Shown here: positions 2,867-35,923 of the stretch, in pieces
Numbering within the stretch: position 1 is the stretch's first letter
Layout: each line of letters begins with the position of its first letter
From: an uncultured bacterium
Lineage (GTDB): Bacteria > Omnitrophota > Omnitrophia > Omnitrophales > Aquincolibacteriaceae
Assembly: GCA_964482725.1 (NCBI GenBank)
Contig: CAYZYT010000001.1
Span: 86,318-150,317 of the forward strand
Direction of reading: 5' to 3'
DNA length: 64,000 nt
The notes under the pieces: model-generated
What the model was told of the DNA's origin: nothing
What the model saw: only the letters and a program-made list of their open reading frames with translations
Databases searched by the model: none
Translations under genes and position numbers: made by a program

Positions 2867-3277
2867 TTACTCCTCAACCTTTCCCCCGCGCTTCTGCGCT
2901 TCGATCTTCTTGAGAAGACGCCGTTTTGTTTCTTCGTATTTCATTCGTCCAGGTAAGGTCAAATTCCTCCTCAGAAGCCAGTCGGTCTCCTCCATAGCCA
3001 AATAGTAATCACCGTTTTTCTCGTAAAATCTCAACAATGATCCCCTCGCGACCACTTCTGTGTCGTCGTTTTTCGCCATACGAAGAGCTTTTTTATAACA
3101 ATCAAGCGCCTCCTGCTTTTTTCCGCTCAAAGCTAATTGGTCGCCCTCATTTAATAAAGAGTAATATTTTACTAAAAGGCTTTCCGTTGTCTCAGTGGAC
3201 GCTGACACAGCAAAGCCTTCTACAGCAAAAAAAAGAATAAGAAATACGATTGAACTCTTACTATATATTTCCTTCAT
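2867..3277 (-). CDS. TPR-like secreted protein or lipoprotein, translationally coupled to the giant protein
   Basis: 136 aa. N-terminal signal peptide (MKEIYSKSSIVFLILFFAVEGFAVSA) followed by helical TPR-like repeats (ALDCYKKALRMAKNDD..., LLRFYEKNGDYYLAMEE). Its start overlaps the giant gene's stop by 4 nt. Confidence 0.6.
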   Translation of the reverse strand: MKEIYSKSSIVFLILFFAVEGFAVSASTETTESLLVKYYSLLNEGDQLALSGKKQEALDCYKKALRMAKNDDTEVVARGSLLRFYEKNGDYYLAMEETDWLLRRNLTLPGRMKYEETKRRLLKKIEAQKRGGKVEE

Positions 3278-9200: not shown

Positions 9201-12200
9201 AAGCAATGGCGGCCCCGACAGAAGTCAGCTGCATGAATTCGATCCGGAGACTCTTGAGTTTGCTAGCGAGAATCCCGGCAGGGCCTTCCCACAGAGGGTG
9301 ATCCATTTTTTTTAAAGCCAGGTAGGAAATATCCTTGATATAAAAAGCACCTGTTTTCCCCACTCCCGAAGACTGGCGAAAAACTTCGATCGTTACTTCC
9401 GCCTCCACCCCGGCCTTGTAAACCAATGGAAAATCGAATGTCTGGTAATCACTTCGGGTAGCGTCCACCTGAAAAGAATAAAGGGTAGACTGCTCGGAGG
9501 TCTTGAGTGTTAGTTGCAAAGTCTGGTTCCAATCCATCGAGGGATCTTTTTTGATCGTAAGAGTTAAAAAATCATAGTTTTCAATATTGACGGGAGTTGC
9601 GACATGCCGTGCAGACATTCCCAAAACGGGGCCGTTCAGATCCTGATAGTTGAATTGATAGCGCGCCAATGCGCCATCCCCAAAATCCCCCTCCACGGCC
9701 TGGGTAAGCTCACCGGGAGGAAGAGTTCCGGCACTAAAACCGACCACCGCATCCGCTCTTTCGAGCACATTGACAGGCGGTTCTTCCAAAATATGTGTTT
9801 TTTCGATCACGCGATCCGGCCGCTGCAGATACTCCGAAAGCTTCATGTATCGAGAGACGGTCTTCGAAGTCCCTGTTTGAGGATCCGGGACGGTTTCGAA
9901 AAAGCGAGCAAACGCGTTCGTGACCCTGCCCCCGGTAGGATCCAGATAATACGAGAAATAGGTGATCCCGTTCTGCGGGGTTTCAATGGCCTCTATGAGA
10001 TCCTTAGAATAAAAGACTTTTACGCCGCCTCCGACATCGGTCCCTTGCGATCCTGTCTGATCAATATCAAACCCGCCCCCTCCGACAAGCGCCACATGGG
10101 CCTTCGCGAGGTTCCCGTCATCGGCAAAAACAATGTCCGTCAGAGTGGCTGTGTCGGTTTGAATGGCATGGATTTGGCCTTGCTCAAAATCAACAACATA
10201 GCCGTCCTCCACAAGAGTTGTGAGTTGACCGCTCGCATCAAAGATCTTTTTACAGTCATTATCCTGGACGACAAAAGAACGGATCTCGCCCCGAAAACTC
10301 TGGTCGTAATAGAACCGTCCCGTTTCTAGTTTTCCGCGGGCCAGATCGATCACGAATGTCGCAAGCCCATTTTCAAAAAGGACCGTCCGACCGTTCCGGA
10401 ACACCCATTTCACGAGTTGTCCCTTTTGAAAATACTGGATCCCCCCGTCCGCCCGTCTGAGGACTCCCTGCACCAGCTTTCCATCCGAATCGACCGTAAA
10501 ATTCTCGAGAGTCTCCTTCTGCGCATAACCGCTTTCATAGCTGGCCTGATCGATAATCTTCTGCTGGATCAACGCACGGATCTCGGTTTCCGTCCTCCCG
10601 AGCAAAAGCTCCCATTGAATTTCATTTGAAGTTCTGACTTTCAAAGCTGAAAGTGGCCCCAGGAACAGATCGCCCGCGATAGGATTGCCGTCAAGGGGCT
10701 GGATCGAGATGGCCAGCTGGCTCATGGCGCCGGCAGGTTTCGGGATCGGAATGGAAATATACTGCCAGTCATAGGACAACGCACCCGTCAGGAAAACCTC
10801 GCCCATTCCCTTGAATTCGAATTTCAACCGAACATTTTCGGGCGTCCCGGGCGACAGCTTGACCGGGACAGAAAGAAAATCATATCCGGAAAGATCGAAT
10901 CCCGGGTAATTCGCCCAGATTCCCACGGGCTTCCCTGCCGACCGAAAATCAAAACTCAGATGCCTTACCTCCCCAAGACTGAGATCCATGGCGAGCATGC
11001 TCATCAAATGCCCCGACCCCGGCGTATAGAAAACTCCCTGGGACGAAGCTCGGTTTAAAATATCGCGTTGCAACCCGCCCAAAAGCGCGGTCGCGGAACC
11101 CGCGTGTTTTGGAGAAAGGCAATATTCCTGCAAATTGATCCTCCGGAGATTCTCTCCTTCCCCAAACTCGATCTCAACGTGATGGAATTTTCCACTCGGG
11201 GTCAAATAATTGAACACGCGCCCTGCTCCCCATTCCGGATCCACCAGCACAGGGACAAAAGCCTGTTGCTTGATGAGCCCCGCAGAAAGTCCATCCGGCA
11301 TGGCACTCGACCCGTCATAAAGCGGGGTCACAGTCTCGCCAAAATCAGGAGGCGGCAAGTTCGTTCGAATCGCAGGATTTAATTTGAAACTCAATCCTTG
11401 ATAAAGGGCATCAAAAGAGGATCGGACACCTGTCCGTCCCAGATATTTTTGAAAATAATTCCGGCTTGTATTCAGAAGGGAAAGAATAAAAGACGCCTGA
11501 TCCACACCGTAATACTGGTCGGAATAGACGGGGACCGTACTCATCACGGTTTCTCCGGTCTGGGGATCCTCCCGGGAAACTTTCCGGAGCTGGATCGCAT
11601 CAACAAAACCCGCGCCGGTCCGCATCTCCGGAAAATGAGACTCCATGTTTTTCAAAAATTGGAGTGTATAATGCGGCGCCAACGGAAAAGCGGCCGCGGT
11701 CCCATAAACAGACCCAGTATCCGTCCTTAAGAGATCGTCCGTTTCTGCAGCTCCGGGCAATCCTATCTTCCCCTGATAACCCTGCAACGGCACATCGCCG
11801 GCCGAAAGAAGACCCGGGATCCCCTGCGTGTTGACATATTCCGCTTGAGCGTAGAGAAAATTCCTCAGAGCGACTTCAAATTCCGGATATTGTGTTTCGT
11901 CCGCATGGATAAGCGGCCAGAACATCTGAAAGGCACCTCCGTCATAGGGCGTCGCCACATCGATCGTATCCCCGCTTTGAGTCTTAAAGGGACGGATCGC
12001 TATGTCCAGGTTCTTTAACGCGTCCTGGTATTGCGGATATTTTGCCGCAAGCCAGATCATTCCAGTCCTGAATTCGTTAAAAACACGGTCAATGTAATAA
12101 TTATTGATGAAATTCCATTGCCTTGTCCCCGCATCGAGGCCATACGCCCCGTGAAAACGTTTTTTACCAGGATCATAAAAAGCTGCATAGCCGGGTTCCT

Positions 12201-25185: not shown

Positions 25186-25390
25186 TTGTCGACCGTAAAG
25201 GAAATAAAACGGAAGACGAGGATAGTTTGTTACCTCAACCCCCGACGACTTAGACCGCAGCCTCTGGGGTTTAGTTCCCCTCGCAGAGGACTTTTTCGAT
25301 CGCTGCCCATTCTAAGCTAAATTATTTTTTCCCCTCATTTTTTTTCGCATGTTAAACTTTGCTTCTTTTTTGAAAAGGGAATGGATCTCT

Positions 25391-28171
25391 ATGGACTTAA
25401 AACGCCTAAAAAAAGCGACCTGCATCTGCATCGCTGTCACCCTATGGTTTGGCCCAAACTCCGGCCTGGCCGTCACGGCCGACAACGCGACGACACCGGT
25501 ACCTCAAGAGATCTCTTTGCCCACCCCTCCCAAGCCAAGCCCCCCAGGCGCTCTTCCCGAAAAAACACAGGAACCCCTCTATTATAAACCCGGCTCCCTT
25601 TTCAAACAGGGGCCTTTGCCCCCCGACATGATCCGGGCCCCCCAAGAAATATCACCGAAAGAGTCCCTCTATATTGTCTCCGAACCCGACTTTTACGCCC
25701 TCAGTCAAACCCTGCCGCTTTCGGATGCCGCGCGATTTTTTTTAGAAGAAACTCTCATCCCTAACGAATCGATCTATTTCATGCCCGGGACGGGCATGGA
25801 CGCCAAGACAGGCATGCCTTACGACCACATCCGCATTCGCTTAAAGGAAAATCTTTTGAGCGAGGTCGGAAATTACACCGCCGCCTCGAAGTTGTCCCTG
25901 CTTATCCCCTTTTTATTAAAAGTGATACAAAAAAACCCTTATTACCGGCAGGTGAAGCTCACGCCCGAGGAAGCCTCCGTAAAACTGAAGCAGACTTTAA
26001 GGACCCTCATGAACTACAACCAAAAATATCCGGACTACGGCGGCTTCCTGCCCTGGGTTGACATCCGGCCCAATGGAACGATCGCGCCGGCCTCCACGAA
26101 AGTCCCCTCGCTGGACAACGGTCAGCTGACCTGGGCCCTGGCTGCGGTCGTTGCCGCGCTGGAAGATTCTGCAGACCCCGAACTACGCAAGATCTCTAGC
26201 ATGGCGCAGGGAATCCTGCACAGCCAAAACTACAGAAAATTCTACGATGACAAATTAAAACTTCTGCACGGCACGATCCAATTTGATACTGAAACGCGCA
26301 CATGGAGCGGGGACACTACTTATTATTTGAATGATATGTTCGAGGGAACGCTCGCCGTACTGTGGGGAGTTCTCAACGGCCAGATCCCGGAAGAAGTTTG
26401 GGACAACTTGTCCATCCCCACCATCGAATACATCACAGCGCATGATGAAAAGATCACGACGCTAGCGGGATTCCGGGCTTCGTTCCACGAGCATTGGGCT
26501 TTGGCTTTTCTTCCTGTCATGAGTTCCGCTCTAGCCCCCCTCTACCAGAACTTTCTTTACGCCCAGGCCGACCACGCCCGCAGGAACCACCTCCCGGGAT
26601 TCCTCAGCACGGCTTATGACCCCAAAGGGATCTACCGTCAGATGGGGGTCCCTTCCATTGCGTACAATCCGGTCGATCGAAGCGATGTGGCCGTGCTTTT
26701 CGCAACCGCCATGGCAATGCTGATCTCTCCAACCGTCGGCGCCTCCTGGCTCATCAAGCTTTATTCCTTTAAAAACTTCATCACACCTTATGGGGGCTAC
26801 GAATCCGTGGGCCGGGACGGTTATGCCGACATCTTCACCGCCGATGCGAAAGGAATGACCCTCCTCGCCGCAAGCGGAGGCGTCGTGGACGAGATCAACA
26901 AATATCTCAATGAACGAACCGTTCCTAGGACCAGCATCCCGATGAACGTGAAACTCATTGAACTGCTGCATGCAAAATACAAGCAAATGCTTGCCGCGCG
27001 CGATGGCCGGCCAATCTTTTTTCCTTCGAAGCCGTTCCCCGCTCCCCCGGAAGACCCGATCGTGGTCAATCCTCAAAAACCTCCCGACGCGGGCGATGTT
27101 TATGATGTGATCGCTCACCTGCAACCCGGCCATTTGCACGGGAAAAATGTCCGGTCCATCGGCCGAAAAACCCTGGAGCAGGATATTTTCCCCGACCAGC
27201 CCATCCAGTTTGAATTTGATATTCCCGCGTACTATTCCTACTTCGATCAGTGGGCCTTCCGAGGCACTTACGTCGATAAAGCCGTCCGCATCGCCGACAT
27301 GCGCTATGTGACCCTCACTGTGCCGGCCCGGAATCCCCCGGGCATGTTCGAACTCGAGATCAAAAGCGACGACATAACCTTAGCGACGGTCATCGTCAAT
27401 ACCACCAAACCGGGAAGGATCTCGGCAGACGGAAACTGGAAAATCCTTGCAGAGAAGATCACGCCGATCCCGGAATCGGATGATAAGCCGTTCAATTACA
27501 TCTCGGTGGCAATCCACGACCCACGGTATCTCCTGGGAGAGTTCACCCGGGGCGGTCGCGAAGGAACGATCCTCTTAAAAGAGATTATCTTGTATAAAAA
27601 GTTCCCCTTTCCGGATACTCCGGAAACTTTATTTGAGCGCCAAGAGAAGGAAGATAATACGGAATTGGAATTGGTGCGCTACTGGCGCTTGAGCCACGGA
27701 GATTTGCCCTTCAGACGAGACGATCTTCGCGGCACCTACTATTTTTCGGGAGGTTTGGGATGGCGGGGCGGGTATATTCCTTATACCAACTTGTCGAAAT
27801 TCCGCTATCTTTACATCAAGGCCCGCAATGTCTCGGACAAAAGCTGCGGCTGTTTTTATGTAGAGCTGAAGCATGAATCGGACCAGCTCCTTGGGGAAAA
27901 AACGCCGATCCACATGCCCGCGGACCAGAAATGGCGCATCTACGAGATCCCCATCCCTCCGCACATCCGTTACACCTTCAATTATATTGCGCTCTCGGAT
28001 CCTTTTTCAAGTTTCGAATTGGGTTCACTCTTGCTTTCGCCCGCTGAGATCACGGGAGATTTAGGCGCTATCGAAAAGGTTTCATACTCACCGCGTGAGC
28101 ATAAACCCCTTGAGTGCACTCATCGCCCCTGCCCGACCACCGCCGCCGACCTAGAACCTAAAGGTCTGTAG
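25391..28171 (+). CDS. Secreted protein with a DUF3131/GH144-like (alpha/alpha)6 glycoside-hydrolase-like domain, paralogous to a domain of the giant protein
   Basis: Signal peptide (MDLKRLKKATCICIAVTLWFGPNSGLAVTA) and a Pro-rich linker. The central domain has strings shared with the giant ORF: NFLYAQADHARRNHLPGFLSTAYDP here versus NFLYAQAEYVNTQGIPGLLSAGD in the giant protein. This family includes endo-beta-1,2-glucanases and the glucoamylase-like domains of cyclic glucan synthases. The start at 25391 is preferred over 25349 because of the upstream AGGGAA. Confidence 0.65.
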   Translation: MDLKRLKKATCICIAVTLWFGPNSGLAVTADNATTPVPQEISLPTPPKPSPPGALPEKTQEPLYYKPGSLFKQGPLPPDMIRAPQEISPKESLYIVSEPDFYALSQTLPLSDAARFFLEETLIPNESIYFMPGTGMDAKTGMPYDHIRIRLKENLLSEVGNYTAASKLSLLIPFLLKVIQKNPYYRQVKLTPEEASVKLKQTLRTLMNYNQKYPDYGGFLPWVDIRPNGTIAPASTKVPSLDNGQLTWALAAVVAALEDSADPELRKISSMAQGILHSQNYRKFYDDKLKLLHGTIQFDTETRTWSGDTTYYLNDMFEGTLAVLWGVLNGQIPEEVWDNLSIPTIEYITAHDEKITTLAGFRASFHEHWALAFLPVMSSALAPLYQNFLYAQADHARRNHLPGFLSTAYDPKGIYRQMGVPSIAYNPVDRSDVAVLFATAMAMLISPTVGASWLIKLYSFKNFITPYGGYESVGRDGYADIFTADAKGMTLLAASGGVVDEINKYLNERTVPRTSIPMNVKLIELLHAKYKQMLAARDGRPIFFPSKPFPAPPEDPIVVNPQKPPDAGDVYDVIAHLQPGHLHGKNVRSIGRKTLEQDIFPDQPIQFEFDIPAYYSYFDQWAFRGTYVDKAVRIADMRYVTLTVPARNPPGMFELEIKSDDITLATVIVNTTKPGRISADGNWKILAEKITPIPESDDKPFNYISVAIHDPRYLLGEFTRGGREGTILLKEIILYKKFPFPDTPETLFERQEKEDNTELELVRYWRLSHGDLPFRRDDLRGTYYFSGGLGWRGGYIPYTNLSKFRYLYIKARNVSDKSCGCFYVELKHESDQLLGEKTPIHMPADQKWRIYEIPIPPHIRYTFNYIALSDPFSSFELGSLLLSPAEITGDLGAIEKVSYSPREHKPLECTHRPCPTTAADLEPKGL

Positions 28172-28557
28172 ATCCATCCTGCGACGATACCACCGACGAT
28201 GCATTCCACCATCCCTCCCAGGAACCACGCCACGGGGATCACGACGGGAAGCGGCATGACGGCATAGCACATCATATTCGCGGCCGCAAACACCAAAAGT
28301 CCGGCCAAGACCCCGAACCGCAACCCCTGCCCAAGCCCCGGCTTGTCCTTTTCATAACCCTTAGCGAAGATCCAGACAAAGAAGAGAGCAAAGACCGGAT
28401 ATCCCGCCCAGATAAAGAGGCCTTTTATTTCAGCTTCGGGCCGCCAAAGATGAAGGGTCTGTTTATAAGCATCCATCAGGATCACGTTGTGCAGGACTAT
28501 ATCGATCGCGACGATCACGGCCGTAACCGCGAGCACAGCTCCTATGAAACGTTTCAT
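28120..28557 (-). CDS. Hypothetical small integral membrane protein (4 TM helices)
   Basis: 145 aa, largely hydrophobic (MKRFIGAVLAVTAVIVAIDIVL...). It overlaps the 3' end of the convergent GH144-like gene by about 50 nt. Confidence 0.45.
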   Translation of the reverse strand: MKRFIGAVLAVTAVIVAIDIVLHNVILMDAYKQTLHLWRPEAEIKGLFIWAGYPVFALFFVWIFAKGYEKDKPGLGQGLRFGVLAGLLVFAAANMMCYAVMPLPVVIPVAWFLGGMVECIVGGIVAGWIYRPLGSRSAAVVGQGR

Positions 28558-28600: not shown

Positions 28601-31600
28601 CTAGATCTTCTGACTGGCTTGGCTCACCGCGTCATCGATCTGCTTCACGAATTCCTCTTCGCTCTGGCCCCCAAGGATCTGCTTCACTTGCTGCGGGTTT
28701 TGACGGATCCGCCGGGCTTTCTCTACTAGAGCCGGATCGATCCCTTTTTTCTCAGAAAGAGCGAGGGCTTTGTCCGCGCGATCCAGGGCCTTGGACGCTT
28801 TCTCGGCGGAAAGAGTCTCCTTGCCAAGAGCTTTTTCCTGCTGCTTCATAATATCCTTCGCCTCGCCCCGCTCGATCTTCGGAGAATCTTCCCCGGCGAT
28901 CTTATTCAATTCTTTCTCGAGGTCTTTTTTCTTCGCGTCCATGTAAGCGCTTTCGCGCGGGCTCAGGCCTTCCGTCTTTTCATTGAGCCTTTTCAGTTCT
29001 TTCTCCATAAGATCTTTCCTGATCAGAAGATCCTGATCGGTCATCGCTTGCCCCGAGGTCTTGTAAGATTTGATCTCACCGCCCTCGCCGGGTTTAAAGA
29101 CCGTGGTCTTTCCCTGCGTCGCCTGCCGTGTCCGGACAAACCCGGCCGTGTAGGCGTCTCCGGGACCGGCCGTGGCACCGAACCGGTCATAAGTCTGATA
29201 GCCCACGTCATAAGAACTCAAACCCTTCGTTCTTAAACTCTCATCCACAAAAGCATCCTGAGCTTTGGCGAACTTCTTTGAAAGTTTCTCATTCGCTTTG
29301 ACAAGATCCCCGCCAAAATTCTTATCGGCATAGGTCTTCAGAGAGACCTCGTCGAATTTTGGCAGCGAAGCAAAATCCGCATCGGTATTGACCGAACGGA
29401 CCTTTCGGGAAGCGCTGGAACCGCTATCCCCCACCATCACTTCCTTGATCTTCACGCCGGTGTTCTTCTCAAATTCCGTCATAGTCTTCTTCACGCCGTT
29501 ATCCACCGCGGCATTCACCTCTTGGGAGATCACCTGGTTCATTTTCTTCACATCGTTCGCCCCCAGATGCCCCTTGCGCTCGAGCTGGCTTAATTCCTCC
29601 ATCCCGCCGCCGCGATAAAGTTTTTTGATCGCCTCCGCCCGCGCCGCATCGTCTTTGATCGCAAGAACTTTTTCAACCGACGTTTTCTTTTTGGCCAGCG
29701 ACTTTGAAAGCCCTTCCGTTCCGACTTCCGCGGCCTGTCCGAAGGCTGTCCGCACCGCGGTGGTTGCTTTCTTCGCACCATAAGACATAACCCCGGCCTG
29801 GGCTCTTCCGACCACCTCGGAAGTGGCCATGTTCAGGGTGGTTTTGGCCACCGCGCCCATGATCGAATCGCCGCTCTTCAGATGATCGTAGACCTGATAA
29901 CTCGCGTCGGCGGTGTTGTAAGCAACCTCGGAATAACCGACCGTCACGCTTCCCATAAGCATCCGAAGCGCCATGGCTTTATAAGAGGCTCCACCCTCGG
30001 CATCGGAGCCCGTGACGATCTCGCGCGCCGCGAGCTGCGCGGTATTCGTCATCGTCGCCTTGGAATTCCAGCGGGCATCCAGCGCATCTTGCTTCTGCTG
30101 CTCCTCGAGCTTATCGAGCTTGCTGCGAAGCGCCTCGACTTTTTCATGCTTGGCTTCCGCATCCTTGATCTTCTGTTTCGTGTCCCGGATATCCTGAGAC
30201 ATTCTCTGAAGCTCCTCCCGACGTTTCTGATCCGAGGCCTGGTTGGAGGCCTGGAATTTCTGATAGCTCGACTGTTTCTCCTTGGCCTCTTTTTCATCCA
30301 CCCAGCCCCACTGATCCGTGTAAACCTTGCCCTGACTGATCATGGAGACATCGCTTTCATAGATCTCAGGCTTCACCCACCCGCCTCCGGCCACAGGCGA
30401 CCACACTTTTCCTTCGCCATTCTTTTCCCCGGGTTGGGGGCTTCCGCTGATTTGAGAGGATCCCCCTTCTAAAGAAATAGGCGGAAGTTCTCCTTGGGCA
30501 TCCGTCTTGGGATCCCAGAAATCTCCGTCCAAAACGACCGGAGGCGCTTCTTCAAAAACACTTTCATCCAAAACTTCCTCTTCGTAAGGACTCTCCGTGC
30601 CCCCCCCCGTTGCCGAAAAAAGTTCGTCATAATCCACATCGCGGATCTTTTGGATGATCTCGTCGATCCTCTCCTGCGGTGGCTCTAAAAACTTCTTGTT
30701 CCTTGATTTAAAACCAAGTTCCACAAAGGCAGCCCCGACCCGGAGCTCATAAGAAGTATATACAGGGTCTTTCCCGACTTGCTTAAATCCGCCATCCCCC
30801 AAAGAAACCTTGGTATAGGTCATTTCCGGGCTCGGACTTTTGAGTCGATTATCAATGATGCTCTGAACGAATTTCTCACCCCCCTTAAAAGGATAAAAAA
30901 ACTGCGCGTGAACACTATGCTCCCAGGCAGGTGCGTCATTAGAATCTTCACGAAAAGGCACGATGGGCTCTGAAAAATAGGTTAATAGCATCCAGCTGAG
31001 CCCCGCCTGCTTTCCGCCGCCCGGCATTTTGTCCGTCGTAAGATAAATGCGTTCCGCAAGAAGCGTGCCGGCATTGATCACAAGCGGCTTAAGCGGGGCC
31101 GGAAGACGATCGAACTTGGGATTTCCTTTTTTAAATATCGCACGCCAACCCCCACTTGAGATCTCCGAGAGGATCTTTTCCACCATCGGATAAAAATCCA
31201 TCTGTTGTCCCATAAGCTTTATGGTGTCTGGCGACGTCGATGCATTGAAATAAACCACAGCGCCATCTTTTAGCGCGGCAAAATGCCACTGCTCGGAAGT
31301 TTTACCTTGCCCCCCATCCATAGTTTTTTTGGTCACAAAGCTTTCATCCGCGCCCTTCACCGGAGAAGCGTCTTTGGCGCCATACTGATAATTGTCCTTG
31401 ACCCACTGTTTACGGGTTGCGTACATCCTTTTTTGAAACCCTCCCCATTCCCCTCTGGGGCTAAAAAGATTGATCCGCACGTCGATATCCCATAACCGTT
31501 GTTTTTGGGGCCCGTAAGTTGGGTCATTCACCACCCTACTTTTCTCACGGGAATAATCCAATTCGACTTCATCTGCAGAAAAAGAGTTCCCGACGCTGGT

Positions 31601-33799
31601 TCGTTCAGAATCTCTCTCTCCTTTCTCTGCATAGTTTAGGATCAGTCCCTGTAAAACCCCGGGGATCTTGCCTGGACCAAATTGGGTTTTGTCCGTTGCC
31701 TCCTGATCCTTCGTCCACAGATCGTCGGAAATGACATAATCACATGGTCCGGAATCCGGAGCGGCCGGCTGCTTGGCCGCTTGGGCCTTCACGATCAGCT
31801 TCACGGGAAGTTTCTGCACTAATTTCCCCTGCGGATCACGGACCTCCACATCGGTCGAATAATTTCCGGTCCCGAGATTCTTCGTTTTATAGGCTAATTG
31901 AAAAGCAGCCTTCTGGCCGGCGGGGAGAGTCCCTTGCGCGGGCTCCACTATCAGCCAAGCTTCGTTGGTTTTGAGCGTGTAGGAAAATGGGCCGCCGCCA
32001 TTCGTTATTTCAAATGTTCCGGCAGGAGCGTCACTGCCCCGGAGGATCTCGGATGACAGATCCGCAGGATTAAGGGAAAGTCCGACTGTGCTTTTCACCT
32101 TCACGGTCACAGGGATCACGATCGGTTCTTTGAGGCCTTCTGACTCGACCTTGATCCCGGCTTTTTGCTCATCGCTACCGATTGAACGAGTATGGATAAC
32201 CGCCGCCAAGGCAGACTCCCCGCCGCTCCGGACAACGCCTTCCTGCGGGGTGACGACCAGCCAGGAGGAATCGCTTGATGTTTTAAATGTCACATCCTCA
32301 GAACCTGAATTTTTCAAAACAAGAGATTGCGGTTTCGGGTCTTGGCCGCTCTCCCCTTCAACGTTCAACGCCGAAGGTTCCACCCGAAGCGTGAAAACGG
32401 CTTCGACCTTGAGTTTCACAGAAAGTTTTTCTGGGCTGTTCTCCGCGTTGGGATCTATCACTTGGATCGTGGCCGGATAATCGCCCGCTTTCAGTCCGGA
32501 GGCGCGAACCTTTAAACTGATTTGCGCTGAATCATCTTTTTCAAGGTTCCCTGAAACAGAATCCAGTTCAAGCCACGCAGCATCTTTAACGCACTGGTAA
32601 TGCAACGTTCCGTCGCCGTCATTTTTAAGGGTAAAAGTTGCCGCCGCTTCAAGGTCCTTCCCAGCTTCGGTCTTCAGCTCAAGGACTTGCGGTTCCAGTT
32701 GAATCACGGGAGGCGTCGTGAGCTTGAGCGTTACCGGGATCTTTTTTGAGATCTTTGCGGTTTCATCGGCAATGACGATCTCACTTGTTTGCTCGCCGGG
32801 TGGGATCTCTTTCGTATCATAATTGACCGTAAGAACAGCTTCCTCACCGCCTTGCAGGGTCTTCGCGGCAGGCGTCACGGAAAGCCAAGGGCTCTTGGCT
32901 TCAACCTTGATCGTAACAGCAGACGATCCCGTATTCTCCACACGAAGGGTTTGAGGATTGACCGGTTTTCCTTTCACCGCTTCAGCGGATAGCGCCTGGG
33001 CACTTAGCGAAAGAACATCATTCGTCATAACGAACGCTGTGACCTGAACATTTTGAGGACTGTTCTTGGCGCCCGGCGCGATCACCTCGATCGTGGCAAC
33101 GTGGGTTCCGGCTGACATCGCGGAGCCTTGCATTTTGACGGTCACAGGAACGGATTGGCCGCTGGCGATCGACCCCTTCCCAGGCTCCGCGGTCATCCAT
33201 GAACTGCTGCCTTCTTCTGAAGCCATCCGCAGCGAATAATCAAGTGTTCCGGCGCCCTGGTTTTGGATTACAAAGGTCTGGTCCCCAGCCTTCTCCCCTT
33301 GCCGGAATTTCGTGCTTATTTGTCTCTTGTCCAGCATAAGCACTGCGCCGGGAAGAACACCCAGACGAACGAATATTGTTTGCGGACTGTTCTGAGCGTT
33401 TGCGTCCTCGATCACGATAGGTGCTACATAGTTACCTTCTTGAAGGTCCGCGGTCTTGAAACGAAGAGTGATCGGCTGCTCCGTATCGCCGGAGGAGGTG
33501 CCTTGCGTGGGGCTCGCCTCCACCCAGGGCATATTTGATTTGACGGAGAAGTTGAGAGTCCCGGCCCCGCTGTTTTTAACGCTGAAGCTTGCGTCCTGAA
33601 TGTTCTCTCCCATAACTCCCTGCCCCTTGAGCTCGGTTCCGCTCAAAACAATGAACGGCTTGCTCGGGTCTTTTGGGGTTTCGGTGAGGGAGGTTTTCAG
33701 CGTTTGAGTCAGATCCTCGAGCAAACCGGCGGAACTGACGGGGAGCATAAAAACACAGCACAAAATCAAGGCCAGGGATGCGCTGCGGACAAATTTCAT
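28601..33799 (-). CDS. Giant secreted protein (1733 aa) with about 7 tandem Ig-like beta-sandwich repeats, a central domain of unknown function, and a C-terminal coiled-coil/charged region
   Basis: The ATG at 33799 (MKFVRSASLALILCCVFMLPVSSAG, a signal peptide) has a GGGAG RBS 8 nt upstream; the ORF track extends to 34063. It contains repeating ~95-aa modules with the pattern ...G.GTL.Y.V....WL.V.P..G.......Q.V.V........G.Y...I.V.....NSPQ.I.V.L.V. The C-terminus has long K/E-rich coiled-coil stretches. Confidence 0.8.
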   Translation of the reverse strand: MKFVRSASLALILCCVFMLPVSSAGLLEDLTQTLKTSLTETPKDPSKPFIVLSGTELKGQGVMGENIQDASFSVKNSGAGTLNFSVKSNMPWVEASPTQGTSSGDTEQPITLRFKTADLQEGNYVAPIVIEDANAQNSPQTIFVRLGVLPGAVLMLDKRQISTKFRQGEKAGDQTFVIQNQGAGTLDYSLRMASEEGSSSWMTAEPGKGSIASGQSVPVTVKMQGSAMSAGTHVATIEVIAPGAKNSPQNVQVTAFVMTNDVLSLSAQALSAEAVKGKPVNPQTLRVENTGSSAVTIKVEAKSPWLSVTPAAKTLQGGEEAVLTVNYDTKEIPPGEQTSEIVIADETAKISKKIPVTLKLTTPPVIQLEPQVLELKTEAGKDLEAAATFTLKNDGDGTLHYQCVKDAAWLELDSVSGNLEKDDSAQISLKVRASGLKAGDYPATIQVIDPNAENSPEKLSVKLKVEAVFTLRVEPSALNVEGESGQDPKPQSLVLKNSGSEDVTFKTSSDSSWLVVTPQEGVVRSGGESALAAVIHTRSIGSDEQKAGIKVESEGLKEPIVIPVTVKVKSTVGLSLNPADLSSEILRGSDAPAGTFEITNGGGPFSYTLKTNEAWLIVEPAQGTLPAGQKAAFQLAYKTKNLGTGNYSTDVEVRDPQGKLVQKLPVKLIVKAQAAKQPAAPDSGPCDYVISDDLWTKDQEATDKTQFGPGKIPGVLQGLILNYAEKGERDSERTSVGNSFSADEVELDYSREKSRVVNDPTYGPQKQRLWDIDVRINLFSPRGEWGGFQKRMYATRKQWVKDNYQYGAKDASPVKGADESFVTKKTMDGGQGKTSEQWHFAALKDGAVVYFNASTSPDTIKLMGQQMDFYPMVEKILSEISSGGWRAIFKKGNPKFDRLPAPLKPLVINAGTLLAERIYLTTDKMPGGGKQAGLSWMLLTYFSEPIVPFREDSNDAPAWEHSVHAQFFYPFKGGEKFVQSIIDNRLKSPSPEMTYTKVSLGDGGFKQVGKDPVYTSYELRVGAAFVELGFKSRNKKFLEPPQERIDEIIQKIRDVDYDELFSATGGGTESPYEEEVLDESVFEEAPPVVLDGDFWDPKTDAQGELPPISLEGGSSQISGSPQPGEKNGEGKVWSPVAGGGWVKPEIYESDVSMISQGKVYTDQWGWVDEKEAKEKQSSYQKFQASNQASDQKRREELQRMSQDIRDTKQKIKDAEAKHEKVEALRSKLDKLEEQQKQDALDARWNSKATMTNTAQLAAREIVTGSDAEGGASYKAMALRMLMGSVTVGYSEVAYNTADASYQVYDHLKSGDSIMGAVAKTTLNMATSEVVGRAQAGVMSYGAKKATTAVRTAFGQAAEVGTEGLSKSLAKKKTSVEKVLAIKDDAARAEAIKKLYRGGGMEELSQLERKGHLGANDVKKMNQVISQEVNAAVDNGVKKTMTEFEKNTGVKIKEVMVGDSGSSASRKVRSVNTDADFASLPKFDEVSLKTYADKNFGGDLVKANEKLSKKFAKAQDAFVDESLRTKGLSSYDVGYQTYDRFGATAGPGDAYTAGFVRTRQATQGKTTVFKPGEGGEIKSYKTSGQAMTDQDLLIRKDLMEKELKRLNEKTEGLSPRESAYMDAKKKDLEKELNKIAGEDSPKIERGEAKDIMKQQEKALGKETLSAEKASKALDRADKALALSEKKGIDPALVEKARRIRQNPQQVKQILGGQSEEEFVKQIDDAVSQASQKI

Positions 33800-33903
33800 A
33801 TTTGATCTCCCGGAGCAAAGCAGTAATGAGATCCCATTTATAAAAAAACGGCCGGAGCTTTTAGACCCGGCCGTTTCCACTGAGTCTATTGTGCCACTTA
33901 ACG

Positions 33904-34176
33904 CTAGAACCCCATTTTCCTTTTCATGTCGTTGCCAGACTTCTGGGCTTCCTTCATGACCTTCTCGGCTTCCCGTCTGGTACAGGCGCCAAGACGATCC
34001 GCTTTTCGTTTTAACAGGATCTGATCCTTTTCCATCCCCTGCTTTCCAAGCGTCCCAAACCAATCTCCGGCTTGATCGATCGGAGTATCCTTAGTGCAAT
34101 CCGCGGCATAAGCGGTCAGGGTGAACCCGCCAAGCATAAGAGTGACAACAAAAAACGCGATGACGAATTTACGCAT
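33904..34176 (-). CDS. Small secreted protein (90 aa), first gene of the operon encoding the giant Ig-repeat protein
   Basis: Signal peptide (MRKFVIAFFVVTLMLGGFTLTAYA). Two Cys and a K/E-rich tail. Confidence 0.5.
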   Translation of the reverse strand: MRKFVIAFFVVTLMLGGFTLTAYAADCTKDTPIDQAGDWFGTLGKQGMEKDQILLKRKADRLGACTRREAEKVMKEAQKSGNDMKRKMGF

Positions 34177-34218
34177 GTTTTTTTCCTTTCGTTTGTTTGG
34201 AGCTACAAAAAACTGCTG

Positions 34219-34230
34219 TGATTATAATCA
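34219..34230 (-). promoter_or_regulatory. Perfect 12-bp palindrome TGATTATAATCA containing a TATAAT -10-like hexamer. Candidate promoter for the 33904..34176 / giant Ig-repeat protein operon.
   Basis: Read directly from the sequence. It lies about 45 nt upstream of the ATG at 34176. Confidence 0.4.
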
Positions 34231-34273
34231 TAAATCCCGCCCTCGCAACCCCCAAGATGACGGGCGAAAGTCT

Positions 34274-34588
34274 TTAAAAAATTCCTGCCTGTTTATAGTA
34301 ATCGAGAAGGGTTTTAACCGCATGGAGAAACACGGCCACCAGAGCATAGGTCAAGCCCAGCACGATCACCGTCAAGGCAACCTTTTTGCGCCGGCTATAC
34401 ACCGGATTAAACCAAACCAACGGCAAAGCGAACGGCCCCACAGTCAAAAAGCTGATCACTAAAGTCGCGGTCTTGGCATACCATGGAACTTGCGACGCCT
34501 GGGGAAGCTCGGTTAAGAATTCGCCACAATGTTTACATTTGACCGCCTCATCTTGGATCGCCTCAGCGCAAAACGGACATTTTTTCAT
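34274..34588 (-). CDS. Zinc-ribbon membrane protein (N-terminal CxxC-x11-CxxC, then 2 TM helices)
   Basis: MKKCPFCAEAIQDEAVKCKHCGEF is followed by hydrophobic helices (TATLVISFLTVGPFALPLVWF and VALTVIVLGLTYALVAVFLHAV). The first ATG is at 34588; the ORF-track start at 34630 is a TTG. Confidence 0.5.
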   Translation of the reverse strand: MKKCPFCAEAIQDEAVKCKHCGEFLTELPQASQVPWYAKTATLVISFLTVGPFALPLVWFNPVYSRRKKVALTVIVLGLTYALVAVFLHAVKTLLDYYKQAGIF

Positions 34589-34595
34589 AGAAAAG

Positions 34596-34841
34596 TTAAG
34601 GCCTTTTGAAGAAACGTTTGATCCATTCAAAAAAACAACCGGCTAGACAACTCGCGGGCGCAAGCCGACTGCCACAGAAAACACAATTCAGAGACTCCGA
34701 GGGCGTCTCTTTCTTACAGGAAGAACAAACGACCGTTTGGGGAGCCGAGACCTCTTCCCGCTCCCATTGCTTCTGGAGTTTTGGGGGAGGTTCCTCGTCT
34801 TTCAGCTCCCAATCCTTCGGCCCCTCTTCATCGTCAAACAT
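34596..34841 (-). CDS. Small acidic zinc-ribbon protein (81 aa)
   Basis: A CSSC...CVFCGSRL zinc-ribbon motif follows an acidic N-terminus. It is 8 nt upstream of, and likely coupled to, the next zinc-ribbon gene. Confidence 0.4.
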   Translation of the reverse strand: MFDDEEGPKDWELKDEEPPPKLQKQWEREEVSAPQTVVCSSCKKETPSESLNCVFCGSRLAPASCLAGCFFEWIKRFFKRP

Positions 34842-34888: not shown

Positions 34889-35923
34889 TTAGATCACGTT
34901 CACTTCGGGAGACAACTCAATCCCGAACTTCTCTTTTACGGAGCAGAAAATAGCCTCCGAAAGCTCCAGGATCTCTCGGCCAGTTGCGCCCCCATAATTG
35001 ACGAGCACCAGCGCTTGAGTCTTGTGAGATCCCGCACGCCCCACGGTCTTCCCCTTCCATCCGCATTGTTCCACAAGCCAACCTGCAGGGACCTTCACGG
35101 TACCATCGGGCTGAGGATAGTGCGGCATCTTGGGGTATTGGGAGGCAAGCGTTTCAAATCGACCCAGAGCCATAGAAGGATTTTTGAAAAAACTTCCGGC
35201 ATTCCCAAGCTCTTTCGGGTCCGGAAGCTTGGCGCGCCGTATCCGGCAGATCGCATCACTCACCGCTTTGAGGGAAAGCTCCTGAGCCTTCATTTCCTCC
35301 AAGGTTTTTCGAACCTCGCCGTATTCCATCCGAAAAGGATAATGACTATGGGTCGCAGAAAGTTTTGCGAGTTTGAACGAAACCGATGTGATGAGGAATT
35401 GCCCCTGAAATTTATGTTTAAAAACGCTGTCCCGATATCCGAAGGCGCAATCCGCAGCATTGAATTTCGCCAAAGTCCCCGAACGAATATCGATCGCTTC
35501 CAGCTCATAAAATGTGTCCTTGAGCTCGACACCGTAAGCCCCAATATTCTGGATCGGGGCGGCCCCGATGAGGCCCGGGATCAAGGAGAGATTCTCGAGT
35601 CCTCCGTAATTCTTTTCGATGCACCCCAACACGAAATCGTGCCAGCCCTCCCCAGCGCCGGCCTTCACGATCACTTCCGTCGTGGTCTCATTCACAACCG
35701 TAACGCCGAGGATCGAATTCTTCACGACCCAGCCGTCAAAATCCCCTGTCAAAAGAATATTGCTGCCACCGCCCAGGATCAGCTTCTTTTCTGAGGAGAA
35801 CCGCTCGTCGCTCACAAGCGCTTTGAATTCCTCCGCCGAGCGGATCTCTGTGAAATGTTTCGCCGCAGCGTCGATTCCAAACGTATTATGCGCTTTGAGA
35901 GACTTATTTTTTTCGGTCATCAT
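34889..35923 (-). CDS. murB: UDP-N-acetylenolpyruvoylglucosamine reductase
   Basis: FAD-binding domain motifs (LILGGGSNILL, GAGEGWHDFV, GLENLSLIPGLIGAAPIQNIGAYGVE) and the MurB C-terminal domain. Confidence 0.9.
   Translation of the reverse strand: MMTEKNKSLKAHNTFGIDAAAKHFTEIRSAEEFKALVSDERFSSEKKLILGGGSNILLTGDFDGWVVKNSILGVTVVNETTTEVIVKAGAGEGWHDFVLGCIEKNYGGLENLSLIPGLIGAAPIQNIGAYGVELKDTFYELEAIDIRSGTLAKFNAADCAFGYRDSVFKHKFQGQFLITSVSFKLAKLSATHSHYPFRMEYGEVRKTLEEMKAQELSLKAVSDAICRIRRAKLPDPKELGNAGSFFKNPSMALGRFETLASQYPKMPHYPQPDGTVKVPAGWLVEQCGWKGKTVGRAGSHKTQALVLVNYGGATGREILELSEAIFCSVKEKFGIELSPEVNVI

What the first reader, a model, noticed from the sequence alone, without database searches (positions are those of the whole stretch)
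28601..34841. Operon: two zinc-ribbon proteins, then a small secreted protein, then a 1733-aa Ig-repeat protein with a novel central domain and a highly charged coiled-coil C-terminus
Four co-directional genes with short gaps.

The giant product has a signal peptide and about 7 tandem ~95-aa beta-sandwich repeats with the recurring NSPQ...V.L.V pattern (Ig-like or BACON-like). It then has a central domain of about 550 aa of no recognisable family. It ends with about 500 aa of K/E-rich coiled coil and Ala/Gly-rich segments.

The upstream zinc-ribbon proteins are intracellular or membrane-bound and have unrelated chemistry. One carries a membrane anchor. A 12-bp palindrome containing TATAAT (34219..34230) lies in front of the small secreted gene.

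This is a self-contained unit of unknown function, possibly an S-layer-like or adhesin system with a dedicated membrane zinc-ribbon partner.
Basis: partly seen in the sequence, partly recalled or inferred. Interest (0 to 1): 0.6.

Follow-up and report, generated by a model that had tools for sequence, protein, structure and literature searches.

The report
Exported Ig-repeat protein with undescribed module
A 1732-residue exported protein of an uncultured Omnitrophota bacterium ends in a well-folded, enzyme-looking 610-residue module that no database describes but at least eight bacterial lineages (phyla to orders) share, and the "four-gene operon" around it is really three separate transcription units.

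Summary
The four co-directional genes are real, but they are not one operon. The 90-aa secreted-protein gene has its own conserved promoter and a conserved intrinsic terminator, which separates it from the large gene.

The large protein is 1732 aa. It has a signal peptide, six BACON/ASH-type Ig repeats, a lineage-specific orphan domain of about 430 aa, and a C-terminal module of about 610 aa.

It is in fact a conserved module:
- 173 cluster representatives carry it, from Chloroflexota, Acidobacteriota, Planctomycetota, Actinobacteriota, Ignavibacteriota, Firmicutes and Omnitrophota.
- The last 369 aa fold confidently (pLDDT 93.5).
- Pfam, NCBIfam, PDB sequences and Foldseek against PDB and BFVD give no significant match.
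- Its invariant G-S…T-D-x-D signature resembles a pol-beta nucleotidyltransferase, but this is unproven.

Outside Omnitrophota the module sits behind a transmembrane helix, so it is probably cytoplasmic. It is always next to a partner gene that ends in a double zinc ribbon or an FHA domain. The Omnitrophota version has no such helix and no such partner.

A 140-aa gene partners the large gene in relatives. It has been cleanly deleted in this window.

The zinc-ribbon neighbours are syntenic only in close relatives, although zinc ribbons recur around this module family-wide. Function is unknown. My best guess is a mosaic, exported cell-contact protein carrying a conserved effector module.

The parts
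34596..34841 (-). ZnR1: 81-aa protein with an acidic N-terminus, a CxxC-x12-CxxC zinc ribbon and a hydrophobic/amphipathic C-terminus
   Evidence: ORF. Weak Pfam DZR match, E=0.018. Homologues at 54-61% identity in L001/L007/L008/L025 only.
34274..34588 (-). ZnR2: 104-aa protein with an N-terminal zinc ribbon (CPFC-x12-CKHC) and two predicted TM helices. It starts 8 nt after the ZnR1 stop, so the two are probably co-transcribed.
   Evidence: Homologues at 69-74% identity in close relatives only.
34221..34248 (-). Sigma-70-like promoter TTGCGA-16-TATAAT of the 90-aa gene. The 12-bp palindrome at 34219..34230 overlaps its -10 element.
   Evidence: 10/12 match, the only hit in 7 kb. The -35 TTG and the TATAAT are invariant in L001, L004 and L007, but the palindrome is not.
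33904..34176 (-). 90-aa secreted, K/E-rich small protein with a signal peptide and two Cys. It is a monocistronic unit.
   Evidence: no family. Homologues at 63-72% identity in L001, L004, L007, L008 and L025.
33842..33876 (-). Intrinsic terminator after the 90-aa gene: a G+C-rich hairpin followed by T7
   Evidence: Fold dG -24.1 kcal/mol, z -2.6. The same hairpin plus T-run occurs in L004 and L001 with compensatory stem changes.
33801..33818 (-). Remnant (TTG plus five codons) of the deleted 140-aa partner gene, joined directly to the start region of the large gene. GGGAG at -12..-8 can serve as the ribosome-binding site.
   Evidence: Alignment A4. tblastn of the 140-aa protein finds nothing in the window.
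28601..33799 (-). Large gene, 1732 aa
   Evidence: An identical protein, P0001, is in NCBI on a 356-kb contig.
33728..33799 (-). Signal peptide (residues 1-24, ...PVSSA/G). It has no lipobox.
   Evidence: Sequence. It is the only hydrophobic segment in the protein.
31784..33658 (-). Six BACON_2/ASH-type Ig-like repeats (residues 48-672)
   Evidence: Pfam BACON_2 E=9.8e-44 in 6 stretches, plus the HYDIN/Cep192/MSP Ig families. Identity to relatives varies repeat by repeat, a mosaic pattern.
30455..31747 (-). Lineage-specific orphan central domain (residues 685-1115)
   Evidence: No Pfam, NCBIfam, PHROG, PADLOC or PDB match. Found only in Omnitrophota-type relatives P0003-P0015. Only 23% identical in P0009.
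28604..30442 (-). Conserved C-terminal module (residues 1120-1732). It comprises a W-rich beta-hairpin unit (1130-1170), a coiled coil (1171-1245), an amphipathic Ala/Gly-rich segment (1246-1363), and an alpha/beta plus helical domain (1364-1732).
   Evidence: 173 representatives at E<=1e-3 and 83 at E<=1e-30, almost all matching only this part. AF2 models.
29375..29431 (-). Signature G-D-S-G-S-S-x9-T-D-A-D (residues 1457-1475), located on a strand-loop-strand
   Evidence: G1460, S1461, T1472, D1473 and D1475 are invariant in 29 diverse members. The motif holds family-wide. Strands fall at model positions 88-95 and 111-119.
28120..28557 (-). 145-aa polytopic membrane protein, 43 nt downstream of the large gene, with no terminator predicted in the gap. 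It may be co-transcribed with the large gene.
   Evidence: Weak DUF2177 match, E=8.6e-4. Syntenic in L004 and L026, degraded in L007/L027, absent in L001. Terminator scan.

Best explanation
The locus is three adjacent transcription units, not a four-gene operon:
- ZnR1-ZnR2.
- A monocistronic gene for a 90-aa secreted protein, with its own promoter and terminator.
- The large gene, perhaps together with the 145-aa membrane gene downstream.

The large product is exported by the Sec pathway and has no membrane anchor. Its first two-thirds are six BACON-type Ig repeats plus a fast-evolving orphan domain. This part is the variable, recombining, outward-facing region and most likely makes contact with another cell or surface.

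Its last third is a conserved module: a beta-hairpin unit, a coiled-coil stalk, an amphipathic segment, and an alpha/beta plus helical domain. The conserved polar residues (G-S loop, T-D-x-D, further Asp, Lys and Arg) look like an active site of the nucleotidyltransferase type.

In other phyla the same module is tethered to the cytoplasmic face of the membrane, behind a variable ectodomain. There it is paired with a partner protein ending in a zinc ribbon or an FHA domain. Omnitrophota fused it to an exported stalk and dropped the anchor and the partner.

I infer that here the module acts as the conserved effector end of a cell-contact protein in a bacterium thought to live on or prey on other cells.

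Shown: gene structure, terminator, promoter, deletion, domain architecture, family distribution, conserved partner gene, confident fold.
Inferred: export, cytoplasmic location of the module in other phyla, enzymatic nature, role in cell contact.
For: Transcription units:
- Terminator hairpin plus T7, conserved with compensatory changes.
- Promoter elements conserved.
- ZnR1 stop and ZnR2 start are 8 nt apart.

Architecture:
- Pfam finds six BACON_2 stretches and nothing after residue 685.
- The only hydrophobic segment is the N-terminal signal peptide.

Module family:
- 173 representatives.
- Loci in Omnitrophota, Dehalococcoidales, Melioribacter, Acidobacteriota, Phycisphaerae, Actinobacteria and Anaerolineales.
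- Members also in Firmicutes and Acidimicrobiales, all named hypothetical.

Fold and active-site look:
- pLDDT 93.5, pTM 0.90 for residues 1364-1732.
- Invariant G, S, T, D, D, D, K, R.

Partner gene and topology in other phyla:
- The partner gene fam1 is adjacent in 14 of 14 non-Omnitrophota loci and absent from Omnitrophota loci. Its C-terminus is a double zinc ribbon or FHA.
- Most members have a TM helix followed by R/K about 250-400 residues before the core.

Mosaic evolution:
- Compared with L007/P0006, the neighbouring genes are 60-69% identical, Ig3 is 35% identical and Ig5 is absent, yet the central domain and module are 89-97% identical.
- Compared with P0009, Ig1-4 are 62-75% identical and the central domain only 23%.

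Background: large Omnitrophota proteins have been proposed to mediate prey adhesion (bioRxiv 10.1101/2023.11.21.568195).
Against: - No experiment or annotated homologue bears on function.
- The nucleotidyltransferase reading rests on a motif and a strand-loop-strand only. Foldseek of the confident model finds nothing significant in PDB; the best alpha/beta hit is FAM46C at E=0.46, TM 0.20. hhalign against kanamycin nucleotidyltransferase gives 0.3% probability.
- An NTP-dependent enzyme makes little sense outside the cell unless it is delivered into another cell, and no delivery apparatus was identified.
- The topology of other family members comes from a crude hydropathy scan and the positive-inside rule.
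- The exported Omnitrophota subfamily is narrow, about five lineages, so comparative power is low.
Confidence: 0.4

Rival explanations
1. One reading: a dedicated four-gene surface system, with an S-layer-like or adhesin protein working with a membrane zinc-ribbon partner and a small secreted accessory protein.
For: - The order ZnR1-ZnR2-90aa-(140aa)-large gene is kept in the window, L007 and the L001/L008/L025 lineage, where the large protein is 73-97% identical.
- Zinc ribbons of the same type recur around the module in other phyla: at the fam1 C-terminus, in a 224-aa membrane zinc-ribbon gene directly upstream in L011, at the N-terminus in L012, and fused in 3 of 92 long members.
Against: - A conserved terminator and a separate promoter split the units.
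- The three upstream genes are absent in L005/L006/L028 and L009.
- There is no SLH domain or S-layer family.
- In other phyla the zinc ribbons are on proteins predicted to be cytoplasmic, whereas this large protein is exported.
- Zinc ribbons are very common small domains.
Confidence: 0.2
2. A purely structural surface fibre. The Ig repeats and coiled coil form a stalk, and the C-terminal domain is an oligomerisation or anchoring head whose conserved polar residues bind a metal or ligand rather than catalyse a reaction.
For: - A helix of about 90 residues and a helix-rich C-terminal domain.
- No significant structural match to any enzyme.
- The amphipathic Ala/Gly-rich segment could associate with a membrane.
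Against: - Invariant residues are mostly small and acidic residues clustered on a strand-loop-strand (G-S, T-D-x-D), plus Lys and Arg. This pattern is typical of phosphate and metal sites.
- In other phyla the same module is predicted to sit in the cytoplasm, where a surface-anchor role is not possible.
Confidence: 0.2
3. A polymorphic-toxin-like or contact-dependent inhibition system. The module would be the toxin, and the 140-aa cytoplasmic protein encoded 4-11 nt upstream in relatives would be its immunity protein or chaperone.
For: - The 140-aa gene is tightly coupled to the large gene in L001, L004, L005, L008, L025 and L028, even where every other neighbour differs.
- The protein is exported and the gene is a recombination mosaic.
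Against: - The C-terminus is the most conserved part of the protein, not the variable part.
- The 140-aa gene lies upstream, and the window and L007 have lost it while the module stays intact.
- In other phyla the module is chromosomal, membrane-tethered and cytoplasmic.
- No known toxin, immunity or trafficking domain was found.
Confidence: 0.1

Closest known systems
BACON / ASH-type Ig-repeat surface proteins (Pfam PF19190 BACON_2, PF13004 BACON, PF22544 HYDIN/VesB-like Ig)
   Same: A signal peptide followed by tandem beta-sandwich repeats of about 100 aa. Six significant BACON_2 stretches.
   Different: Known BACON proteins carry glycoside hydrolase, protease or phage-tail domains. Here the repeats lead to an orphan domain and an undescribed 610-aa module.
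[quoted passage not shown]
   Same: Same phylum. Exported, repeat-rich, largely unannotated, with a proposed cell-contact role. A 4471-aa RHS/ILEI protein lies in the same window.
   Different: This protein is far smaller (1732 aa). It has none of the domains reported for those proteins (dockerin, C39 peptidase, SecA-like). Its conserved part is shared with non-predatory phyla.
Pol-beta-type nucleotidyltransferases (kanamycin nucleotidyltransferase, minimal NTases, FAM46/TENT5)
   Same: The sequence pattern hG[GS]-x9-13-DhDh sits on a strand-loop-strand preceded by a long helix. A further conserved Asp lies before the next strand. A helical C-terminal domain carries invariant Lys and Arg.
   Different: No significant match by sequence, profile or structure. 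No helix between the two strands. Membership is not established.
Receptor-type membrane enzymes with a variable ectodomain, one TM helix, a coiled-coil stalk and a cytoplasmic nucleotide-using domain (class III adenylyl cyclases, GGDEF receptors). This is a works-like analogy, for the non-Omnitrophota family members only.
   Same: Ectodomain-TM-coiled coil-conserved cytoplasmic domain. The neighbouring protein carries FHA or kinase-prefix-type zinc ribbons.
   Different: No homology to cyclase or GGDEF domains. The protein in this window lacks the TM helix altogether.
Polymorphic toxin / contact-dependent inhibition systems
   Same: A large exported protein with a repeat stalk, a small tightly linked cytoplasmic partner gene in relatives, and a recombination mosaic.
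   Different: The conserved and variable ends are reversed. The partner gene is upstream and dispensable. No known toxin or immunity family was found.

Membership tests
BACON_2 / Ig-like repeat proteins | Significant matches to the repeat profile, in tandem | tested here: met
   PF19190 E=9.8e-44 (147.6 bits against a cut-off of 25), 6 stretches across residues ~50-680
Zinc-ribbon proteins (Zn_ribbon_3 / DZR) | Four Cys as CxxC-x(10-20)-CxxC, plus a profile match above the curated cut-off | tested here: inconclusive
   Both proteins have CxxC-x12-CxxC. ZnR2 scores 26.2 bits against a cut-off of 27, and PHROG families reach E=1.7e-11. ZnR1 reaches only E=0.018.
Single operon of four genes | No terminator or internal promoter between the genes, and the arrangement conserved in relatives | tested here: not met
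   Conserved terminator at 33842..33876. Conserved promoter at 34221..34248. The upstream genes are absent in L005/L006/L028/L009.
Pol-beta nucleotidyltransferase superfamily | hG[GS] motif followed after 9-13 residues by [DE]h[DE]h on the next strand | tested here: met
   V-G-D-S-G-S ... T-D-A-D-F. G1460, S1461, D1473 and D1475 are invariant in 29 diverse members. Strands at model positions 88-95 and 111-119.
Pol-beta nucleotidyltransferase superfamily | Third catalytic carboxylate on the adjacent strand | tested here: inconclusive
   D1531 is conserved in at least 80% of 113 members and lies 3 residues before strand 1534-1538. Invariant D1548 lies in the following loop. No coordinates were available to check the geometry.
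Pol-beta nucleotidyltransferase superfamily | Detectable structural or profile similarity to solved members | tested here: not met
S-layer proteins | An SLH or other known S-layer anchoring or lattice domain | tested here: not met
   No such Pfam or NCBIfam hit
Polymorphic toxin systems | Conserved N-terminal trafficking region, variable C-terminal toxin, immunity gene immediately downstream | tested here: not met
   The C-terminus is the most conserved region. The downstream gene is variable. No toxin or immunity families were found.
Module + fam1 two-gene cassette (defined here) | A TM helix before the module and an adjacent fam1 gene with a zinc-ribbon or FHA C-terminus | tested here: not met
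   The window protein has no TM helix other than the signal peptide. fam1 is absent from the window and from all Omnitrophota loci. Only the module itself is shared.

The most novel reading that the evidence does not exclude
The C-terminal module is a new nucleotidyltransferase-like enzyme family. In most phyla it would form a transmembrane sensor-effector pair with a zinc-ribbon/FHA partner, serving a signalling or defence function. Omnitrophota would have turned it into an exported, contact-delivered effector mounted on a recombining Ig-repeat stalk, for use against host or prey cells.
Probability: 0.15. Interest if true: 0.8.

Novelty: new variant of a known kind. Interest (0 to 1): 0.45.

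Why it matters
- The locus exposes a protein module present in at least eight bacterial lineages (phyla to orders) that folds confidently, has an active-site-like constellation of invariant residues, and has a strictly linked partner gene. It is nevertheless absent from Pfam, NCBIfam and the PDB, which makes it a tractable piece of microbial dark matter.
- In Omnitrophota the module has been moved from a presumably cytoplasmic, membrane-tethered setting to an exported, rapidly recombining Ig-repeat protein. Omnitrophota are ultra-small, uncultured bacteria suspected of living on other cells.
- If the module is an enzyme delivered to other cells, it would be a concrete molecular handle on that lifestyle.
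- If it is not, the work still corrects the operon model and gives the domain boundaries needed for experiments.

Tried and rejected
Family and sequence searches that found nothing for residues 685-1732, the 90-aa protein or the 140-aa protein:
- Pfam, NCBIfam, PHROGs and PADLOC.
- PDB sequence and profile searches.

Structure:
- The first AF2 model, of residues 1125-1732 with 7 sequences, was poor (pLDDT 64), and its Foldseek search was empty.
- The second model (29 sequences) was excellent, but Foldseek against PDB and BFVD still found nothing significant.

Profile comparisons:
- hhalign of the module profile against kanamycin nucleotidyltransferase was negative.
- The 140-aa protein against fam1, the central domain against fam1, and the 140-aa protein against the central domain were all unrelated. 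The idea that Omnitrophota fused fam1 into the large protein is therefore rejected.

Searches for relatives:
- The word-indexed searches returned only close relatives or fragments.
- The first related-loci call, on the diverse alignment, failed for lack of a conserved stretch.
- No relatives in plasmids, phages or viral contigs, so a mobile-element or phage origin is rejected.
- The metagenome scan added only four loci of lineages already known.

Other:
- No tRNA or Rfam RNA in the window.
- The palindrome as a regulatory operator is rejected. It is not conserved and is expected by chance.
Full report
**Origin of the window.** The large protein is identical to an NCBI protein on a 356-kb contig. 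Its nearest named relative is MEI7750870.1 from a Candidatus Omnitrophota MAG. Related loci come from Omnitrophota MAGs and from lake metagenomes. The window has no tRNA or Rfam match.

**The genes.** All four genes lie on the minus strand.
- ZnR1 (34596..34841, 81 aa) has a CxxC-x12-CxxC ribbon. Pfam support is weak (DZR E=0.018).
- ZnR2 most likely starts at the ATG at 34588, 8 nt after the ZnR1 stop. This gives the 104-aa protein called in relatives. It scores 26.2 bits on Zn_ribbon_3 against a cut-off of 27, and PHROG zinc-ribbon families reach E=1.7e-11. Two hydrophobic helices follow the ribbon.
- The 90-aa gene (33904..34176) encodes a signal peptide and a K/E-rich mature part with no family match.
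- The large gene starts at the ATG at 33799 and encodes 1732 aa. The longer TTG-initiated ORF would overlap the 90-aa gene.

**Not one operon.** Three observations split the locus into separate units.
- The only sigma-70-like site in 7 kb is TTGCGA-16-TATAAT at 34248..34221, in front of the 90-aa gene. Its -35 TTG and its TATAAT are invariant in three relatives.
A perfect palindrome of this length is expected about 16 times by chance in 64 kb.
- Between the 90-aa stop and the large gene's start lies a G+C-rich hairpin followed by seven T (33842..33876; dG -24 kcal/mol, z -2.6). L004 and L001 have the same hairpin and T-run with compensatory stem changes.

The 90-aa gene is therefore a monocistronic unit, and the large gene is transcribed separately. 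A 145-aa membrane-protein gene lies 43 nt downstream of the large gene with no predicted terminator in the gap. It is syntenic in some relatives and may belong to the large gene's unit.

**Synteny.**
- ZnR1, ZnR2 and the 90-aa gene accompany the large gene only in close relatives: L007, and the L001/L008/L025 lineage. L004 has the 90-aa gene but ends at a transposase-like gene.
- In the lineage at about 50% identity (L005/L006/L028) and in L009, every neighbour is different.
- What survives that distance is a 140-142-aa cytoplasmic protein encoded 4-11 nt upstream of the large gene. It matches no family or structure.
- The window and L007 lack it. Alignment shows a clean deletion that leaves the TTG start and five codons (33801..33818) joined to the large gene's start region, between short repeats GAGAT(C/A)AAA.

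**Architecture of the large protein.** Pfam finds six BACON_2/ASH-type Ig repeats between residues 48 and 672 (E=9.8e-44) and nothing afterwards. Residues 685-1115 are an orphan domain. It occurs only in the Omnitrophota-type relatives and matches no family or solved structure.

The exhaustive profile search changed the picture for the C-terminus. 173 cluster representatives match at E<=1e-3 and 83 at E<=1e-30, almost all of them only over residues ~1120-1595. Local searches show the helical tail is conserved as well.

The module has four parts:
- a Trp-rich beta-hairpin unit (VWSPVAGGGWVKPEIYE…GKVYTDQWGWV);
- a coiled coil of about 75 residues;
- a conserved amphipathic Ala/Gly-rich segment;
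- a domain of about 370 residues with the family-wide consensus LY..GGM..L..LE..G … EV.VGDSGSSA-x8-9-RS..TDADRT … YA … DVDYK.Y..G..G..DSYP.GF..RQA.QG.T.V … Y.TSGQA..DQ … AKA..R … DP.L…A..IR.NPQ.

With 29 diverse sequences, AlphaFold2 predicts this last domain at pLDDT 93.5 and pTM 0.90. The predicted order is a long helix, a strand, a G-S-rich loop, a strand starting at the D-x-D, helices, three more strands, and a helical bundle.

Foldseek finds nothing significant in the PDB or in BFVD. The best alpha/beta hit is the nucleotidyltransferase FAM46C at E=0.46. The sequence pattern fits the pol-beta nucleotidyltransferase signature hG[GS]-x9-13-DhDh. However, hhalign against kanamycin nucleotidyltransferase is negative (that sequence was verified against PDB entry 6un8). 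I therefore treat the nucleotidyltransferase reading as a lead, not a result.

**The family elsewhere.** Members are 900-1900 aa and are all annotated as hypothetical. They come from Dehalococcoidales, Anaerolineales, Acidobacteriota, Phycisphaerae, Actinobacteriota/Acidimicrobiales, a Melioribacter MAG, Candidatus Syntrophonatronum and Omnitrophota. None occurs in plasmid, phage or viral-contig collections.

Most members have a signal peptide or several TM helices, then a variable ectodomain (PEGA in one). A TM helix followed by Arg/Lys comes about 250-400 residues before the core. By the positive-inside rule this places the module in the cytoplasm; this is an inference.

In all 14 non-Omnitrophota loci a gene of about 385-445 aa (fam1) lies next to the module gene. 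Its N-terminal ~330 residues match no family. Its C-terminus is a double zinc ribbon or an FHA domain.

Zinc ribbons also appear in other positions around the module:
- fused to 3 of 92 long members;
- at the N-terminus of the L012 member;
- in three further genes around the Melioribacter member, including a 224-aa membrane protein with a C-terminal ribbon directly upstream.

The support is circumstantial, because these ribbons are common domains.

**What is special about the Omnitrophota version.** It has a cleavable signal peptide and no other hydrophobic segment, and it has no fam1 gene. The module is fused to Ig repeats and the orphan domain.

The gene is also a mosaic.
- Against L007/P0006, the flanking genes are 60-69% identical, Ig3 is 35% identical and Ig5 is missing, yet the central domain and module are 89-97% identical.
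- Against P0009, Ig1-4 are 62-75% identical, while Ig5-6 and the central domain are 23-30%.

Exchange of gene segments between lineages, combined with fast divergence of the outward-facing part, is what one expects of a surface protein under diversifying selection.

**Interpretation.** I commit to an exported cell-contact protein with a variable Ig-repeat and orphan-domain front end and a conserved, probably enzymatic, C-terminal effector module. This fits proposals that large Omnitrophota proteins serve prey or host adhesion. Confidence is about 0.4 overall. It is high for the gene organisation and architecture, and low for the function.

Three rivals remain:
- the four-gene adhesin/zinc-ribbon system (0.2);
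- a non-enzymatic surface fibre (0.2);
- a toxin/immunity-like pair with the 140-aa protein (0.1).

The main difficulty for my reading is that a nucleotide-using enzyme outside the cell needs a route into a target cell, and none was identified.

**Verdict.** The locus is ordinary in being a large exported repeat protein. Its C-terminal third belongs to an undescribed, widespread, confidently folded module family that has a fixed partner gene in other phyla. I rate it a new variant of a known kind, with interest 0.45.

Noticed in passing
window 3274..16689 (-): A 4471-aa ORF with only weak RHS_repeat, ILEI and Glycoamylase Pfam hits. A syntenic gene of 4356-4367 aa occurs in relatives L002-L004.
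   Followed up: partly
window 25349..28171 (+): A 940-aa protein with a signal peptide and no Pfam family. It converges on the 145-aa membrane gene (28120..28557, -) and overlaps it by 52 bp. It is present in L007 but absent at this position in L001 and L004, so it is an insertion relative to those lineages.
   Followed up: partly
window 33801..33818; L001 9567..9989; L004 1774..2196; L005 9569..9997: A 140-142-aa cytoplasmic orphan protein lies 4-11 nt upstream of the large gene in relatives. The window and L007 have lost it by a clean deletion between short repeats GAGAT(C/A)AAA, leaving the start codon and five codons.
   Followed up: yes
L007 3164..9083 compared with window 28601..34841: The flanking genes (ZnR1, ZnR2, 90-aa) are 60-69% identical, but the central domain and module of the large protein are 89-97% identical. 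Ig repeats 2-4 are 35-55% identical and Ig5 is missing. This suggests recent exchange of the 3' two-thirds of the gene between lineages.
   Followed up: partly
L010-L024 (e.g. L010 8223..9428, L012 8947..10272, L018 9009..10340): A conserved, undescribed partner gene (fam1) lies next to the module gene in 14 of 14 non-Omnitrophota loci. It has an unknown N-terminal domain of about 330 aa with an EDFRWPL motif. Its C-terminus is a double zinc ribbon or an FHA domain.
   Followed up: partly
L011 3079..10103 (Melioribacter roseus MAG): Five zinc-ribbon-containing genes lie around the module gene. One is a 224-aa multi-TM protein with a C-terminal ribbon that ends 8 nt before the module gene.
   Followed up: no
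L012 13763..14815, L019 3805..4959, L021 4381..5436: A TM-anchored beta-propeller-like protein of about 350-385 aa (repeated G..W.GT motifs) recurs near the module gene in three loci from two phyla.
   Followed up: no
L001 4587..8366: In the L001/L008 lineage, a 1241-aa autotransporter (PATR plus Autotransporter domains) lies between murB and the zinc-ribbon genes. In the window, murB (34889..35923) directly abuts ZnR1.
   Followed up: no
P0148, P0152, P0156 (representative-search hits): Some relatives share the coiled coil and amphipathic segment but end in a different C-terminal domain. That domain has a similar P-W-D-[IV]-N-T-D-x-D motif, which hints at a wider superfamily.
   Followed up: no
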